From Escherichia coli (GTDB taxonomy: Bacteria > Pseudomonadota > Gammaproteobacteria > Enterobacterales > Enterobacteriaceae), in the NCBI GenBank assembly GCA_002099625.1, contig GCA_002099625.1_4857.1: a stretch of 64,000 nt of DNA. One strand, written 5' to 3'. Position numbers and translations under genes: made by a program. The stretch's first letter is position 1. Every line of letters begins with the position of its first letter. Of the stretch, positions 2,753 through 63,145 are shown in pieces. A model generated the notes under the pieces. That model was not told the origin of the DNA. It saw only the letters and a program-made list of their open reading frames with translations, and ran no database searches.

Positions 2753-2805
2753 GTTAAAACTCCTTAAGATAATGGTCGATTAGATAAGAGTTAATTGTTA
2801 ACTCT

Positions 2806-7623: not shown

Positions 7624-7682
7624 TTTAATTGCTCCTTAATACATGACATAAGTTCTGATTGAAACGTAAATTTCAGAGGTTC

Positions 7683-7706
7683 ACTGAGATAACATCTATC
7701 TGAAAT
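7683..7706 (-). promoter_or_regulatory. class B phage promoter-like motif
   Basis: Minus-strand TTTCAGATAGATGTTATCTCAGTG; related copies at 18184, 26453, 46767 and 47567. Confidence 0.55.
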
Positions 7707-24705: not shown

Positions 24706-24756
24706 TAGAATACTCCTTTAGATTAATAGTCGATTAGAGAGTTTAGTAGTAACTCT

Positions 24757-26452: not shown

Positions 26453-26482
26453 CGTCTCCCTAAGATAATATCTATCCGAAAA
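26453..26482 (-). promoter_or_regulatory. class B phage promoter-like motif
   Basis: Minus-strand TTTTCGGATAGATATTATCTTAGGGAGACGTG. Confidence 0.5.
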
Positions 26483-46732: not shown

Positions 46733-46766
46733 TGAGCATCCCAGTAATAATACCAAAAGAATTATT

Positions 46767-46790
46767 CACGTAGATAATATCTATCTCAGA
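46767..46790 (-). promoter_or_regulatory. class B phage promoter-like motif
   Basis: Minus-strand TCTGAGATAGATATTATCTACGTG. Confidence 0.5.
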
Positions 46791-52216: not shown

Positions 52217-52363
52217 TTAACTTTTGTTTAGTAGTATTTCACCTCCTAAACCCTTGATACGACGAACAGTGTTCTGCTTGGGCGCAGTCAACTGTTGTAC
52301 ACGTTGGTTGAATTGGGTTTGCTTAACGTAATAGTTAAGTATTTGCGAACGTAGTTGTTCCAT
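52217..52363 (-). CDS. micro-protein, paralog A (48 aa)
   Basis: ATG 52363 with SD AAGGAGG; ends IKGLGGEILLNKS; paralog of 52476..52622. Confidence 0.5.
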   Translation of the reverse strand: MEQLRSQILNYYVKQTQFNQRVQQLTAPKQNTVRRIKGLGGEILLNKS

Positions 52364-52475: not shown

Positions 52476-52622
52476 TTACTTCTTATTGAAGATGATGTCA
52501 CCTCCTAGTCCTTTAATGGTACGGGTGGAAGTCTGCGTTGGGCGGCTAACCTCTTGCAGACGTTGTTGAAAAGCGACTTGTTTCAGCTGTTGCTGACGCA
52601 GTTGTTGCATAAAGGTATTCAT
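52476..52622 (-). CDS. micro-protein, paralog B (48 aa)
   Basis: ATG 52622 with SD AGAGG; ends IKGLGGDIIFNKK; below the 60-aa cutoff of the ORF track. Confidence 0.5.
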   Translation of the reverse strand: MNTFMQQLRQQQLKQVAFQQRLQEVSRPTQTSTRTIKGLGGDIIFNKK

Positions 52623-52735: not shown

Positions 52736-53596
52736 CTACGGTTTATAATCAACTTCGTTGATCTTGCCGCAAGCCGGACAAGCAATGTTCATTGTCTGCG
52801 AAGTATAGCGATGGGTTCTCGGTACTGTAGCGACATGGTTGCGGTTACAGCCGGAACACGTCCAGCCAACCACTGGTGCCTTCGATTGTTTCTGGGCAGG
52901 TGTGTCTTCTTTTAACAATGCGACTACCGCGTGAAATTTACGAAGCTCTGCGTTAACATGCGCTTCCCAGTCGGCGTCCAAACGCGCCGTGAACCAACGT
53001 TGAATCTTCTGGCCAAGTCCGTCTTGATTTTCTTCTTCATGGGACATCACAAACTTGAGATTTGCACGACCCCATTGCACGACGTTCTCTACTTTAATCC
53101 CGTCTACGGTGTCGCTGATTGGCGTATAGTTAAAAGTTGGATAGGTGAGATAACAAGCTTCAGCTGTTGCAAAGACAGTATTGCCTTCAAACAGTGCCAT
53201 GGCCTCATCGCCCTTAGCATCCTTCTGTGCGGCTTCCAATCGTGGGCAATGGAAACCTTCAAGTTGCTGGATTTTGGTCGTTAGCACATTGATACCCTGT
53301 AGCACGGCAATGCGCTTTTTGCTGTCTGTGATCGTCGCCATTACCTTGCACAACGCGCGCGAGATAGCGCTATACATTGACGTTTTGCGGTTTTCATCGA
53401 GGAAACGCTCTTGCTGCTCCAGGTCGTAAGAAGACAGGCCGTAGCTCTGCCCTTCGACCAACACGACATAAGTACGACGTTTGTCGCGGTCCAGCTGGAC
53501 AATGGCCGCATCGGTTAACGGATCGCTAGCCAATACTTCGTGGTTGGGAGGTAGGGGGAAATCCGAACTTTTGATAAAATCAGTAATGCTGTACAT
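52736..53596 (-). CDS. hypothetical protein with C-terminal zinc ribbon
   Basis: 286-aa ORF; C-terminal CSGCN...CPACGK. Confidence 0.55.
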   Translation of the reverse strand: MYSITDFIKSSDFPLPPNHEVLASDPLTDAAIVQLDRDKRRTYVVLVEGQSYGLSSYDLEQQERFLDENRKTSMYSAISRALCKVMATITDSKKRIAVLQGINVLTTKIQQLEGFHCPRLEAAQKDAKGDEAMALFEGNTVFATAEACYLTYPTFNYTPISDTVDGIKVENVVQWGRANLKFVMSHEEENQDGLGQKIQRWFTARLDADWEAHVNAELRKFHAVVALLKEDTPAQKQSKAPVVGWTCSGCNRNHVATVPRTHRYTSQTMNIACPACGKINEVDYKP

Positions 53597-53599
53597 TTT

Positions 53600-54016
53600 T
53601 TAGTCCTTAAGAGAGTTAATAAAGTCATCTAAACTAATATCACGGAATGGGAAGTAAACACCTTCAAGCGGAATCGTGTAGTGTTCACTAATGGCACGTT
53701 GCCAATCCAGAACAGTTGCAGGGTAGTTCACAACCTCAAAGTTAGGATGCGTGATTGGCGGAATTGCGTTGTAAACATAGCCGTTAATATTTTTCGATGG
53801 GAACGCTGCACGGAACTTCGGCTCCATGTAGAACATTTCTTCTTTTACTTCCTGGCCTTCCCAGAAACGATAGCCACCCTTACCGTCAGGAATATAAATC
53901 GCCTTGTCACGGGGTATAGGGGAATCCTTGGATAGCGGAACAAATCGCCCGTACTGGTCAAGAACCATCCAGTCAGTGTCATTCTTTAAATACTTTTGGA
54001 GCTTCTCATTAATCAT
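53600..54016 (-). CDS. hypothetical protein
   Basis: Start probably ATG 54016 or 54022; the ORF track N-terminal extension runs through the terminator. Confidence 0.5.
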   Translation of the reverse strand: MINEKLQKYLKNDTDWMVLDQYGRFVPLSKDSPIPRDKAIYIPDGKGGYRFWEGQEVKEEMFYMEPKFRAAFPSKNINGYVYNAIPPITHPNFEVVNYPATVLDWQRAISEHYTIPLEGVYFPFRDISLDDFINSLKD

Positions 54017-54032
54017 TTTCATGTTCCTTAGG

Positions 54033-54062
54033 CAAAAAATAATACCACCCGTAGGTGGTATT
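54033..54062 (-). terminator. intrinsic terminator
   Basis: Stem accacc/ggtggt with cgta loop; A-run on plus strand. Confidence 0.6.
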
Positions 54063-54074
54063 AAATTATCTATA

Positions 54075-54263
54075 CTACTTCTTCCCGAGTTCCCCACGGA
54101 ACTTCGCCAGCTCTTCTTTCCAGTCCGGCTTCGGTAGTGCGCTTTTCGGCCCCACGATAAACGTACGTTCTGAGGTTTGCGGATTCACCTCTACTGTTTC
54201 GTTATCTTCCACTTCGCGAAGCACGATTCCGTTTTTACCATCGTAATTAACTAAAACGCCCAT
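54075..54263 (-). CDS. small hypothetical protein
   Basis: 62-aa ORF. Confidence 0.45.
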   Translation of the reverse strand: MGVLVNYDGKNGIVLREVEDNETVEVNPQTSERTFIVGPKSALPKPDWKEELAKFRGELGKK

Positions 54264-54445
54264 TAGTAAATCTCCTGCTGCATTGGAAACACATTACCTG
54301 TCGGTGAGACGAGTAAGACTTGCGCGGTAACGTGAACAATTTCTTCTTCGTCCTGATGACGAACACCGTTAGTGAGATTATCCCACTCACGTTTAACACG
54401 AGGGTGAGATAAGAACTCGGCAAACTGCGTATCAGAAAAGTCCAT
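54263..54445 (-). CDS. small hypothetical protein
   Basis: Start ATG 54445 overlaps stop of upstream micro-ORF (TAATG coupling). Confidence 0.45.
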   Translation of the reverse strand: MDFSDTQFAEFLSHPRVKREWDNLTNGVRHQDEEEIVHVTAQVLLVSPTGNVFPMQQEIY

Positions 54446-54588
54446 TAGCCGCGACCTGTGCACATGGCAACAGAGTTACCGTTATCGATGCATTTGTTGT
54501 AATCTTGAGTTACAGTGATAGACAGTACCGCGAAAGCAACAACAGCAACGATTGCGAAGATGGCACGTTTATGGTTACGAGTTAACAT
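54445..54588 (-). CDS. small membrane protein (47 aa)
   Basis: MLTRNHKRAIFAIVAVVAFAVLSITV...; single TM; first ORF after class A promoter; not in ORF track (under 60 aa). Confidence 0.45.
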   Translation of the reverse strand: MLTRNHKRAIFAIVAVVAFAVLSITVTQDYNKCIDNGNSVAMCTGRG

Positions 54589-54640
54589 GGTAATACTCCT
54601 TTAGCTTAATAGTCGATTGAGTTGATAGATTGTCTTCTAT

Positions 54641-54664
54641 CACCTAGGTAATATATATCTGAAA
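54641..54664 (-). promoter_or_regulatory. class A phage promoter-like motif
   Basis: Minus-strand TTTCAGATATATATTACCTAGGTG followed by hairpin GATAG/CTATC and leader. Confidence 0.6.
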
Positions 54665-54689
54665 TTATTTTTATTCAGAGTACACCCTC

Positions 54690-54795
54690 TATAACGCTCT
54701 CAAACGCGTTTTGAGAGCTTTTATCACTTTAGAGGGTCGTTCTACCGTTAGAGTGGCTTTAGAAGGTTGTGTGTGCGTTTAGAGGGCTAAAATAA
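54690..54795. repeat. intergenic palindrome plus four TTAGARKG direct repeats
   Basis: Inverted repeat gctctcaaa-cgcgt-tttgagagc at 54696..54718; repeats tttagaggg, gttagagtg, tttagaagg and tttagaggg follow over about 60 bp. Confidence 0.5.
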
Positions 54796-54824
54796 AGAGA
54801 CCTGGTCTCACAAGGAGACCAGGC
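54786..54824 (-). terminator. intrinsic terminator
   Basis: Stem cctggtctc/gagaccagg; A-run on plus strand upstream. Confidence 0.65.
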
Positions 54825-54830
54825 ACACTT

Positions 54831-55628
54831 TTACATCAAATCCAGGCTCTGAGAGACCGCAACTTCCGGTTCACTGATGCCGCTGGTCACTGACAATGTA
54901 AAGCGACGATCGTTAATCACTTCAACTGCCTCGCTCGCACGCAGTGAATACTTATCGGCGATTGGCAGTACACTGTTATCGTTCTGTGGCGGCAGAATCT
55001 GTGCCGGGAACGGAATGTACGAGTTGAAAGTGATATACGGACCGACTTGCATCATCGGGAACACTTCGTTCACGTTATTCGACATCCCTTCATCCGAAGA
55101 GATAACGGAGTGACGCAGACAGGCACGCAAGCCAACGGTGTACTCCGGATCGCGCGATTCGCCGATCAGTGCGAAACGGAACACGTTGAAATCGTAGTCG
55201 TCTGCAGCGAAGTGTTCTGGCAGGATACGCTGTACGTATTCAGGGTAAGTGGTCACGTCACCCGGAATAACATTCACGGCGAGTTTCTGTGCCAGGAAAT
55301 ACGCATTCGCGAAACCGTACTGCCCCGCCAGCGCAGCTGATATCGGTGCAGTGGTTACGCAGTGCAGGAACAAGTGATAACCCAGCCCGCCTTTATCTTC
55401 GATTGCCAGGTCCTTCTTACTCTGCACACCGTCAGCAGTATAAATAACTGCCACTGTTTTATCCAACGTTGATGCCATGACAAAATCCAACTGCACCTCA
55501 CCGCTTTGCGGCAGTACCTTAACCAGGCGATCCCAGAGCTTGGTCGGTTTGGTGAAGTTAGCGGCTTCGTACGCATCAATGTCGAGAACAGTTTGGCCGG
55601 TCATGCGAAAGGTGTGAATCGCTTTCAT
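54831..55628 (-). CDS. hypothetical protein, possible virion protein
   Basis: 265-aa ORF. Confidence 0.55.
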   Translation of the reverse strand: MKAIHTFRMTGQTVLDIDAYEAANFTKPTKLWDRLVKVLPQSGEVQLDFVMASTLDKTVAVIYTADGVQSKKDLAIEDKGGLGYHLFLHCVTTAPISAALAGQYGFANAYFLAQKLAVNVIPGDVTTYPEYVQRILPEHFAADDYDFNVFRFALIGESRDPEYTVGLRACLRHSVISSDEGMSNNVNEVFPMMQVGPYITFNSYIPFPAQILPPQNDNSVLPIADKYSLRASEAVEVINDRRFTLSVTSGISEPEVAVSQSLDLM

Positions 55629-62280: not shown

Positions 62281-62317
62281 TATAAATACTCCTTACGATT
62301 AATGGTCGATTACATAC

Positions 62318-63100: not shown

Positions 63101-63145
63101 ATTCCTTAAGTAATGGTCAGTTAGTAAAGCAAATCATTGTTTGCT

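What the first reader, a model, noticed from the sequence alone, without database searches (positions are those of the whole stretch)
54263..54588. Translationally coupled micro membrane protein operon
A 47-aa single-TM protein (54445..54588), missed by the ORF track, is the first ORF after a class A promoter. Its stop overlaps the start of the next small gene (TAATG at 54445). Small membrane proteins expressed early are frequent host-takeover or exclusion effectors.
Basis: seen in the sequence. Interest (0 to 1): 0.45.

Follow-up and report, generated by a model that had tools for sequence, protein, structure and literature searches.

The report
Early jumbo-phage membrane micro-protein gene
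The 47-codon reading frame is a real, conserved gene (gp66 of Salmonella giant phage SPN3US and its relatives) for a tiny membrane-anchored protein with an invariant two-cysteine tail that probably faces the periplasm; it is already annotated as "hypothetical protein" and its function is untested, so the finding is sound but fairly ordinary.

Summary
The window is an SPN3US-like jumbo phage (Seoulvirus, 98.8% identical to Escherichia phage EC001). All the described features are present on the minus strand:
- a 25-nt promoter-like motif (4 copies in the window, 0 expected by chance)
- a 5' stem-loop
- a strong ribosome-binding site
- the 47-aa ORF (54445-54588)
- a TAATG stop/start overlap with a 60-aa ORF, and a second TAATG overlap with a 62-aa ORF
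- a hairpin terminator

The ORF is SPN3US gp66 (PHROG 8574, unknown function), annotated in more than 50 GenBank records. It occurs only in jumbo phages of Enterobacterales, across four genera.

Its hydrophobic segment changes in sequence but stays hydrophobic (dN/dS 0.40). The last 15 residues, C-x-x-[NL]-G-[NH]-S-x-x-x-C-T-G-R-G, fit one motif in all 17 distinct sequences (tail dN/dS 0.11). Five homologues carry a lipobox-like pattern instead of a plain anchor, which argues that the tail is exported.

Only gp66 is hydrophobic; the two downstream proteins are soluble. gp66 also occurs without the 60-aa gene, and in many relatives it is not the first gene after the promoter.

There is no homology to MgrB, Hok, Imm/Sp or any Pfam or PDB entry. 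The most likely role is an early envelope-acting effector whose disulfide-closed tail binds a partner. This is inferred, not shown.

The parts
54800..54824 (-). Intrinsic-terminator-like hairpin (10 bp, then T-run) ending the upstream 265-aa gene (54831-55628). It insulates the small-gene unit from upstream transcription.
   Evidence: GCCTGGTCTCCTTGTGAGACCAGGT + CTCTTTATTT. The same hairpin position is seen in SPAsTU, pEa29 and Asesino.
54685..54709 (-). Conserved non-coding box ACGCGTTTGAGAGCGTTATAGAGGG, about 20-45 nt upstream of the promoter motif. Its function is unknown.
   Evidence: Unique in the window. Present at the syntenic place in Asesino, SPAsTU, pEa29, Caitlin, ChrisDB and phiEaH2 and in metagenomic jumbo phages L026, L027 and L031.
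54640..54664 (-). Predicted early promoter for the virion RNA polymerase.
   Evidence: 4 copies in the window against 0 in shuffles. The 17-nt core is exact in relatives of four genera at this locus. The type of motif is described in PMC7598289. The transcription start site is not mapped.
54623..54642 (-). 7-bp stem-loop (UGAUAGA / UCUAUCA) at or near the predicted 5' end of the transcript.
   Evidence: 9 of 11 distinct leaders after this motif have a stem of at least 6 bp here, with different sequences, against 8.4% of random window positions. On its own the fold is not unusual (z -0.67).
54607..54618 (-). Leader box AATCGACTATTA between the stem-loop and the ribosome-binding site.
   Evidence: It also precedes the gp66 ribosome-binding site in most relatives where gp66 is internal to the operon.
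54596..54601 (-). Shine-Dalgarno AAGGAG, 7 nt before the ATG of gp66.
   Evidence: sequence read directly.
54445..54588 (-). gp66-family gene, 47 aa. It has a basic N-terminus, a hydrophobic anchor (residues 9-26) and a conserved tail DYNKCIDNGNSVAMCTGRG with Cys33 and Cys43.
   Evidence: (PHROG 8574, E 1.7e-28).
54263..54445 (-). gp67-family gene, 60 aa, soluble and acidic. Its start overlaps the gp66 stop (TAATG), and only a weak SD-like AGGT lies upstream.
   Evidence: (PHROG 14868). The AlphaFold model has low confidence (pLDDT 65.9).
54075..54263 (-). gp68-family gene, 62 aa, soluble. Its start overlaps the gp67 stop (TAATG) and it has its own AGGAG.
   Evidence: (PHROG 16804).
54034..54063 (-). 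Intrinsic-terminator-like hairpin (10 bp) plus a T6 run, closing the three-gene unit.
   Evidence: (-15.9 kcal/mol, z -2.96, 1 of 200 shuffles folds as well).

Best explanation
The locus is a short, terminator-bounded early transcription unit of an SPN3US-like, nucleus-forming jumbo phage: promoter motif, 5' stem-loop, gp66, gp67, gp68, terminator.

gp66 is a 47-residue bitopic envelope protein:
- The basic N-terminus stays in the cytoplasm.
- The hydrophobic segment anchors it in the inner membrane. In some relatives this segment is replaced by a lipoprotein-type anchor.
- The last ~19 residues are exposed in the periplasm. There they form a short helix / NGNS-turn / helix hairpin, probably closed by a Cys33-Cys43 disulfide.

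The tail, not the anchor, is the working part. It most likely binds a conserved partner at the envelope soon after infection. My preferred reading is exclusion of further phage entry or protection of the infected envelope, analogous to T4 Imm/Sp or T5 Llp. Modulation of a host inner-membrane protein in the manner of MgrB is the close second.

Shown: the gene is real and under purifying selection; tail invariance; promoter-motif and operon anatomy.
Inferred: early timing, topology, the disulfide, partner binding and the biological role.

The confidence given (0.45) is for the whole statement. The structural core (a real gene for a membrane-tethered protein with an exported functional tail) would rate about 0.8, and the specific exclusion role about 0.25.
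For: - **Identity of the phage.** 98.8% identity to Escherichia phage EC001 / SPN3US. SPN3US and Asesino are reported as nucleus-forming Chimalliviridae with early transcription by an injected virion RNAP (PMC13282480).
- **Promoter.** The 25-mer occurs 4 times against 0 expected, is conserved across genera, and fits the ~10-nt AT-rich motif upstream of early operons (PMC7598289). The other copies drive a dihydrofolate reductase operon and a putative regulator.
- **Real gene.** 63 phage records. Only six 45-50 aa clusters in 1.84 billion representatives. 12 of 12 IMG/VR motif hits are true homologues on jumbo-sized contigs.
- **Selection.** The tail has pS 0.57 against pN 0.11 (dN/dS 0.11), with synonymous changes in the G, S, T, G, R and G codons. 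The anchor has dN/dS 0.40 with hydrophobicity retained.
- **Topology.** 2-3 K/R before the anchor, and a neutral or acidic tail. 5 of 17 distinct homologues have a lipobox-type pattern with Cys at position 20/21, which makes sense only if the C-terminal part is exported.
- **Structure.** AlphaFold2 gives helix 4-35, a turn, then helix 40-44, with mean pLDDT 85.5.
- **Independence from gp67.** gp66 persists in Machinavirus without gp67.
Against: - No experiment or transcript data exist for this locus. No SPN3US RNA-seq or proteomic mention of gp66 was found.
- Topology, disulfide and anchoring were judged with simple rules only (hydropathy, charge, a pattern recalled from PROSITE). No SignalP, LipoP or TMHMM was available. 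AxA-like sites (AFA|V at 20/21) leave signal-peptide cleavage open.
- The AlphaFold model rests on 5 sequences.
- There is no homology to any exclusion protein, MgrB or Hok. The proposed role therefore rests on analogy.
- The invariant tail in phages of different hosts fits a phage-encoded or a conserved host target equally well.
Confidence: 0.45

Rival explanations
1. MgrB/AcrZ-type modulator. gp66 inserts next to a host inner-membrane protein, such as a sensor kinase like PhoQ or a transporter, and changes its activity through its transmembrane segment plus disulfide-bonded periplasmic tail. This would reprogram the envelope early in infection.
For: The gross architecture matches E. coli MgrB as I recall it: 47 aa, basic N-terminus, one hydrophobic segment, and two periplasmic Cys 10-11 residues apart (with the MgrB sequence taken from memory). 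The host range is restricted to Enterobacterales. The tail is invariant.
Against: There is no sequence relationship. hhalign aligns only the hydrophobic segment (probability 3.8%), and no Pfam or NCBIfam hit was found at E<=1. The variable anchor sequence and the lipobox variants argue against a specific helix-helix contact in the membrane.
Confidence: 0.18
2. Membrane-damaging micro-toxin or lysis-timing protein (Hok/TisB-like, holin or antiholin-like). Here the hydrophobic helix oligomerises and depolarises or permeabilises the inner membrane.
For: The size and the anchor-plus-Cys-tail layout resemble Hok/Gef. In pEa29, Asesino and phiEaH2 the gene directly upstream is an 81-aa two-TM, holin-like protein with a basic C-terminus.
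Against: The helix is the least conserved part and the tail the most. There is no similarity to Hok (probability 0.15%) or to any holin family. The predicted early promoter is an odd time for lysis functions. The 81-aa partner is absent from the window and from all Seoulvirus SPN3US-type genomes searched. No i-spanin-like neighbour exists, so it is not an o-spanin.
Confidence: 0.12
3. The hydrophobic segment is a cleaved signal peptide. The product would be a free (or, in some phages, lipid-anchored) periplasmic peptide of about 19-27 residues cyclised by a disulfide, rather than an inner-membrane protein.
For: There are AxA-like sites at the same alignment position in several homologues (AFA|V, ALS|V, AFG|S). 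A lipobox pattern occurs at that very position in 5 of 17 homologues, four of them with Ser at +2.
Against: The hydrophobic run is 18 residues (KD 2.2-3.0), longer than a typical signal-peptide core. AlphaFold predicts one continuous helix, 4-35. Several homologues lack any good cleavage site (Asesino, pEa11). This rival changes the anchoring, not the proposed mode of action.
Confidence: 0.2
4. gp66 is only a leader ORF whose translation serves to deliver ribosomes to gp67; the peptide itself has no function.
For: The TAATG overlap, and only a weak SD-like AGGT 9 nt before the gp67 ATG. The overlap or adjacency is kept in all 5 relatives that have gp67.
Against: There is strong amino-acid-level constraint with many synonymous changes. 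gp66 is retained, with its tail intact, where gp67 is absent (Huxley, pSal04, Caitlin, ChrisDB). The junction is unstructured, so the gp67 start is accessible without upstream translation.
Confidence: 0.03
5. Chance ORF; not a gene.
For: Short ORFs are abundant: 49 ORFs of at least 20 aa overlap this 3-kb stretch.
Against: Conservation, dN/dS, the ribosome-binding site, the PHROG family and the annotation.
Confidence: 0.01

Closest known systems
SPN3US gp66 (SPN3US_0066, AEP83899 / YP_009153360); PHROG 8574
   Same: The window protein is 100% identical to SPN3US gp66 and matches the 47-position PHROG profile end to end (E 1.7e-28). Its neighbours gp65 to gp72 are the same as in SPN3US.
   Different: Nothing differs. 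It is the same gene in a close relative, and both the family and the PHROG are annotated 'unknown function'.
MgrB (47-aa inner-membrane inhibitor of the PhoQ sensor kinase in Enterobacterales; recalled from memory)
   Same: Same length, basic N-terminus, single hydrophobic segment, and a short periplasmic tail with two cysteines about 10 residues apart.
   Different: No detectable homology. The tail sequence is unrelated. gp66 is phage-encoded and sits behind a phage-specific promoter motif. The partner is unknown.
Phage superinfection-exclusion envelope proteins: T4 Imm and Sp, T5 Llp, Cor (from general knowledge)
   Same: These are small, early-expressed phage proteins, anchored by a transmembrane segment or a lipid, that act from the periplasmic side. 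The mix of TM-type and lipobox-type anchors in the gp66 family recalls the Imm/Sp versus Llp/Cor styles.
   Different: No sequence or fold similarity was found. gp66 is much smaller: its exposed part is only about 19 residues. No exclusion phenotype is known for this phage group.
Hok/Gef type I toxins (from general knowledge)
   Same: About 50 aa, with an N-terminal transmembrane helix and a periplasmic tail containing Cys.
   Different: No homology. Here the helix is poorly conserved and the tail invariant. I did not look for an antisense RNA or an overlapping mok-like frame. The gene sits in a lytic-phage operon.
Early (virion-RNAP) promoters of phiKZ-related jumbo phages
   Same: A highly conserved AT-rich core (TATATATTAC), over-represented upstream of operons, on the coding strand and in intergenic regions, as the review PMC7598289 describes for every RNAP-encoding jumbo phage.
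   Different: The exact consensus is lineage-specific. For this lineage I found no published start-site mapping, so 'early' is inferred.

Membership tests
SPN3US gp66 family / PHROG 8574 | Full-length match to the family profile | tested here: met
   E 1.7e-28 over 1-47 of 47 profile positions; 100% identity to SPN3US gp66.
SPN3US gp66 family / PHROG 8574 | Syntenic position between the 265-aa gp65 homologue and the gp70 homologue | tested here: met
SPN3US gp66 family / PHROG 8574 | C-terminal motif C-x-x-[NL]-G-[NH]-S-x-x-x-C-T-G-R-G followed by the stop | tested here: met
   Present in 17 of 17 distinct sequences, including the window copy.
MgrB family | Sequence homology to MgrB | tested here: not met
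   No Pfam or NCBIfam hit at E<=1. hhalign probability 3.8%, covering the hydrophobic segment only (MgrB sequence from memory).
MgrB family | About 47 aa, N-in single TM, two periplasmic cysteines | tested here: met
   Met by hydropathy, charge and Cys positions only. The topology is predicted, not measured.
MgrB family | Binds and inhibits PhoQ | not testable with these tools
   Needs reporter or interaction assays.
Hok/Gef type I toxin | Sequence homology to Hok/Gef | tested here: not met
   No Pfam hit; hhalign probability 0.15% (Hok sequence from memory).
Hok/Gef type I toxin | Antisense RNA and overlapping leader ORF control | not tested
   No Rfam family was found in 53900-54900 at E<=1, but no specific search was made.
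Bacterial lipoprotein (lipobox) | [LVI..][AST..][GAS]-C pattern 15-35 residues from a basic N-terminus (PROSITE-like pattern, from memory) | tested here: not met
   The window protein has AFA-V at that place and no Cys. 5 of 17 homologues (Caitlin, ChrisDB, P0004, P0005, P0007) do match.
Two-component spanin (o-spanin) | Small outer-membrane lipoprotein gene embedded in or next to an i-spanin gene (N-terminal TM plus periplasmic coiled coil) | tested here: not met
   There is no lipobox in the window copy. Neighbours in the window and in lipobox-bearing relatives have no N-terminal TM (183-aa proteins KD18 0.84-1.57 near the C-terminus).
T4 Imm / Sp, T5 Llp / Cor exclusion proteins | Sequence or fold homology | tested here: not met
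   No Pfam, PHROG-function, PDB-sequence or Foldseek match.
T4 Imm / Sp, T5 Llp / Cor exclusion proteins | Blocks entry of superinfecting phage | not testable with these tools
   Needs plating-efficiency tests on cells expressing gp66.
Jumbo-phage early (virion RNAP) promoter | Conserved ~10-nt AT-rich motif over-represented upstream of operons | tested here: met
   description in PMC7598289.
Jumbo-phage early (virion RNAP) promoter | Transcript 5' end a few nt downstream, appearing early and rifampicin-resistant | not testable with these tools
   No transcript data for SPN3US-like phages were found in the library.

The most novel reading that the evidence does not exclude
gp66 is the first envelope-acting early effector of nucleus-forming (Chimalliviridae-type) jumbo phages of enterobacteria. 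On this reading it is a 19-residue, disulfide-stapled periplasmic 'finger', tethered by interchangeable anchors (TM helix or lipid), that binds a conserved machine. That machine would be either the ejection apparatus of an incoming sister phage (exclusion) or a conserved host envelope complex. The finger would be the minimal functional unit.
Probability: 0.15. Interest if true: 0.6.

Novelty: new member of a known kind. Interest (0 to 1): 0.3.

Why it matters
Very little is known about what nucleus-forming jumbo phages do at the cell envelope in the first minutes of infection. No superinfection-exclusion or envelope-takeover factor turned up for this group in the papers I searched.

gp66 is a compact and tractable candidate:
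- It is only 47 residues.
- Its 15-residue C-terminal motif is kept across four phage genera that infect Salmonella, E. coli, Proteus and Erwinia.
- The anchor type appears to have been swapped during evolution.

If the tail has a defined target, it would be a very small natural peptide ligand for an envelope component.

The promoter / 5' stem-loop / leader-box architecture seen here is also a ready-made definition of early transcription units in this lineage. As it stands, however, this is an annotated hypothetical gene of a familiar type.

Tried and rejected
- **Family libraries.** Pfam, NCBIfam and PHROG-function scans of gp66-gp70 gave only unknown-function PHROGs and sub-threshold noise (OapA_N, PDF2_C).
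- **PDB.** A PDB sequence search with the gp66 profile gave only one hit, at E 0.6.
- **Whole-library HMM search.** Beyond six 45-50 aa clusters, only two ankyrin-repeat proteins matched. Their 'DINKCRDNGASPL' repeats resemble the tail (E 2e-6 and 7e-4, from repeated short matches). I rejected these as short-motif resemblance, not homology.
- **Comparison with MgrB and Hok.** hhalign found no relationship.
- **Fold searches.**
  - The gp66 model against PDB gave nothing below E 6.9; thionin/crambin-type hairpins near E 8 are not significant.
  - The gp67 model is too poor (pLDDT 65.9), and its BFVD search gave nothing below E 0.37.
- **Bacterial genomes.**
  - A scan for relatives found none.
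  - A degenerate DNA pattern for the tail gave 4 hits, all with in-frame stops, so they are chance matches.
- **Spanin idea.** Prompted by the lipobox variants; rejected because no neighbour is i-spanin-like.
- **Structure-mediated translational coupling.** The junction is less folded than shuffles.
- **Sigma-70 promoter.** None was found on the coding strand near the unit.
- **Rfam.** No family in 53900-54900.
- **Literature.** Nothing on SPN3US gp66, on the promoter string, or on SPN3US transcriptomics. The phiKZ transcription paper (PMC4178840) is not held.

Full report
**What the window is**

The region 53600-54850 is 96-98.8% identical to some 35 genomes of SPN3US-like jumbo phages (Seoulvirus). 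The best matches are Escherichia phage vB_EcoM_EC001 and Salmonella phage SPLA1a, at 98.8%. All genes near the finding are on the minus strand.

In SPN3US numbering the order of transcription is:
- gp64, a virion structural protein
- gp65, 265 aa, at 54831-55628
- gp66, 47 aa, at 54445-54588
- gp67, 60 aa, at 54263-54445
- gp68, 62 aa, at 54075-54263
- gp69, 138 aa
- gp70, 286 aa
- gp71 and gp72, two 48-aa paralogues

SPN3US and the related Erwinia phage Asesino are reported to be nucleus-forming phages. Their early genes are transcribed by an injected virion RNA polymerase (PMC13282480; PMC7598289).

**Check of the observation**

The 47-aa ORF reads MLTRNHKRAIFAIVAVVAFAVLSITVTQDYNKCIDNGNSVAMCTGRG and has AAGGAG 7 nt before its ATG. 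Residues 9-26 have a Kyte-Doolittle mean of 2.86. The N-terminal flank has three K/R, and the 21-residue C-terminal flank is net neutral or acidic with two cysteines.

The stop shares its last A with the ATG of gp67 (GGC TAA TGG). A second TAATG joins gp67 to gp68.

The 'class A promoter' is a 25-nt motif, TTTCAGATATATATTACYTAGGTGA, at 54640-54664. It occurs four times in the window, always on the minus strand in front of a gene, against none in 100 shuffles.

The unit is bracketed by terminator-like hairpins:
- 54824-54800, after gp65
- 54063-54040, after gp68; this one is 10 bp plus T6, with z -2.96

Two corrections are needed. First, the ORF is not unannotated: it is SPN3US_0066 / YP_009153360 and is called in nearly all related records. 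Second, stop/start overlaps are frequent in this genome, so the overlap is not remarkable in itself.

**Is it a real gene?**

Yes.
- tblastn finds it in 63 phage records of four genera: Seoulvirus, Machinavirus, Erskinevirus and Wellingtonvirus. Their hosts are Salmonella, E. coli, Proteus and Erwinia, and identity goes down to 47%.
- It is PHROG 8574, of unknown function.
- A profile search of 1.84 billion representative proteins finds only six clusters of 45-50 aa.
- A degenerate DNA pattern for the tail finds 12 IMG/VR contigs. All of them encode true homologues and nearly all are 150-246 kb long. The 4 bacterial hits contain in-frame stops.

Across eight divergent orthologues the two parts evolve differently:
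- The last 19 codons have pS 0.57 and pN 0.11 (dN/dS about 0.11).
- The N-terminal and anchor part has dN/dS about 0.40.

There are synonymous differences in the invariant Gly, Ser, Thr, Gly, Arg and Gly codons.

All 17 distinct sequences end in C-x-x-[NL]-G-[NH]-S-x-x-x-C-T-G-R-G. The constraint is therefore on the peptide, and the tail is the conserved, presumably functional part. The anchor needs only to be hydrophobic.

**Topology and structure (inferred)**

The positive-inside rule puts the N-terminus in the cytoplasm and the tail outside.

Independent support comes from five homologues: Caitlin, ChrisDB, P0004, P0005 and P0007. At position 20/21 they carry a lipobox-type pattern (..ALAC..AAAC..VLGC; pattern recalled from PROSITE). 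Such a signal is meaningful only for an exported C-terminal part. The window protein has AFA|V at the same place, so signal-peptidase cleavage cannot be excluded.

AlphaFold2 (5 sequences, mean pLDDT 85.5) predicts one helix over residues 4-35, an NGNS turn and a short helix over 40-44. This is a hairpin in which Cys33 and Cys43 could form a disulfide. I could not measure the distance between them.

**Operon anatomy and its evolution**

The 17-nt promoter core is exact at this locus in relatives from all four genera and in uncultivated jumbo phages.

Two conserved features follow the promoter:
- Four to eight nucleotides after ...TTAC, 9 of 11 distinct leaders form a stem of at least 6 bp with different sequences. 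Only 8.4% of random positions in the window do so. If the AT-rich core is centred near -10, as described for this promoter type, the stem-loop sits at the 5' end of the mRNA. From general knowledge of E. coli mRNA decay, such a hairpin is likely to stabilise the transcript.
- A box, (A/T)TCGACYAT, lies between the stem-loop and the ribosome-binding site.

gp66 is the first gene after the promoter in the SPN3US type and in three metagenomic phages (L026, L027, L031). In SPAsTU, pEa29, Caitlin, ChrisDB, Asesino, Huxley, phiEaH2, pSal04 and pEa11, one to four other small genes lie between the promoter and gp66.

gp66 is the only constant small gene of this variable cassette. gp67 is present in 5 of 9 fetched relatives and gp68 in 4 of 9. 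Where gp67 is present, the junction is TAATG (3 cases) or TAAGATG (2 cases).

The junction RNA is unstructured (z +1.85), and gp67 has only a weak AGGT upstream. Coupling by termination-reinitiation is therefore plausible but neither required nor shown.

gp67 and gp68 are soluble, belong to unknown-function PHROGs, and gave no usable model.

**Comparison with known systems**

No library places gp66 in a characterised family:
- Pfam, NCBIfam, PDB sequences and Foldseek gave nothing.
- MgrB resembles it in architecture (47 aa, one TM, two periplasmic Cys; sequence from memory). The profile comparison aligns only the hydrophobic stretch, at 3.8% probability.
- Hok shows no relationship.
- An o-spanin reading fails because there is no i-spanin-like neighbour.
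- Holin-type readings are weakened by the predicted early promoter and by the poorly conserved helix. Three Erwinia phages do, however, place an 81-aa two-TM protein directly before gp66. That protein is absent here.

**Mechanism proposed**

gp66 is made early and inserts N-in/C-out in the inner membrane. In some lineages it may be lipid-anchored or cleaved instead. It displays a disulfide-closed 19-residue hairpin in the periplasm that binds a conserved partner.

The tail is identical in phages of hosts as different as Salmonella and Erwinia. The partner is therefore either a phage component or a strongly conserved host envelope protein:
- A phage component would be, for example, the entry apparatus of a superinfecting sister phage. 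This gives an exclusion role, as with T4 Imm/Sp or T5 Llp.
- A conserved host envelope protein would give an MgrB-like mode.

I favour the exclusion or envelope-protection reading only slightly. No result here discriminates between the two.

**Verdict**

Only one of the three products is a membrane protein, the coupling is unproven, and the function is untested.

It is an already annotated hypothetical gene of a familiar kind, with one distinctive feature: the invariant C-terminal disulfide loop combined with interchangeable anchors.

Noticed in passing
window 54623-54642(-), 24735-24755(-), 2782-2804(-), 63120-63144(-); loci L003-L009: Every copy of the promoter-like motif is followed within 4-8 nt by a stem-loop of 6-13 bp. 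Its sequence differs between copies but its position is fixed (9 of 11 leaders against 8.4% of random positions). It is probably a 5'-terminal hairpin of early transcripts.
   Followed up: partly
window 54607-54618(-), 24724-24735(-), 2770-2781(-), 62300-62311(-); upstream of gp66 in L003-L011: The box (A/T)TCGACYAT(TA) lies 4-12 nt before the Shine-Dalgarno of first genes of early-type leaders. In most relatives (not Caitlin) it also lies before gp66 where gp66 is internal to the operon. It might be a translation or RNA-processing signal. It is not explained.
   Followed up: partly
window 54685-54709(-): The conserved non-coding box ACGCGTTTGAGAGCG(TTATAGAGGG) is unique in the window but syntenic in all four genera and in metagenomic jumbo phages. 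In SPAsTU and pEa29 it sits just before the ATG of a 131-134 aa gene annotated 'putative DNA ligase', which is absent from the window. In the window it forms a perfect 9-bp inverted repeat (GCTCTCAAA/TTTGAGAGC).
   Followed up: partly
window 54685-54786: There is a local cluster of four CCYTCTAAA-like repeats: three direct on the minus strand and one inverted. Four of the window's 12 one-mismatch matches lie within about 100 bp, in the gp65-gp66 intergenic region.
   Followed up: partly
window 52476-52622(-) and 52217-52363(-): gp71 and gp72 are two tandem paralogous 48-aa, Gln- and Arg-rich proteins ending in ..IKGLGG[DE]I..NK. Each has flanking hairpins. A homologue (47 aa) is also present in Erwinia phage Huxley.
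   Followed up: no
window 52736-53596(-): gp70 (286 aa) ends in a CxxC...CxxC zinc-ribbon-like segment (residues ~246-282). It has a weak hit to PHROG 6417 'translational regulator' (E 0.002) and sub-threshold zinc-binding family hits.
   Followed up: no
L004 1189-1434, L007 1175-1420, L009 233-478 and 1205-1450: Erwinia phages pEa29, Asesino and phiEaH2 (two copies) carry an 81-aa two-TM protein with a basic C-terminus (LKAKFKK). It is the first gene after the promoter, directly upstream of gp66. It is found in only 6 phage records and is absent from the window.
   Followed up: yes
window 7681-7705(-), 26457-26481(-), 46766-46790(-): A second, related motif class (T[CT]T[CG][AG]GATAGAT[AG]TTATCT, with further differences downstream) has 5-6 differences from the class A motif. 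It may be a second promoter class.
   Followed up: no
proteins P0010, P0011 (not in the window): Ankyrin-repeat proteins with 'ADINKCRDNGASPL' repeats match the gp66 tail profile (DYNKC[IR]DNGNS). I judged this a short-motif resemblance rather than homology.
   Followed up: partly
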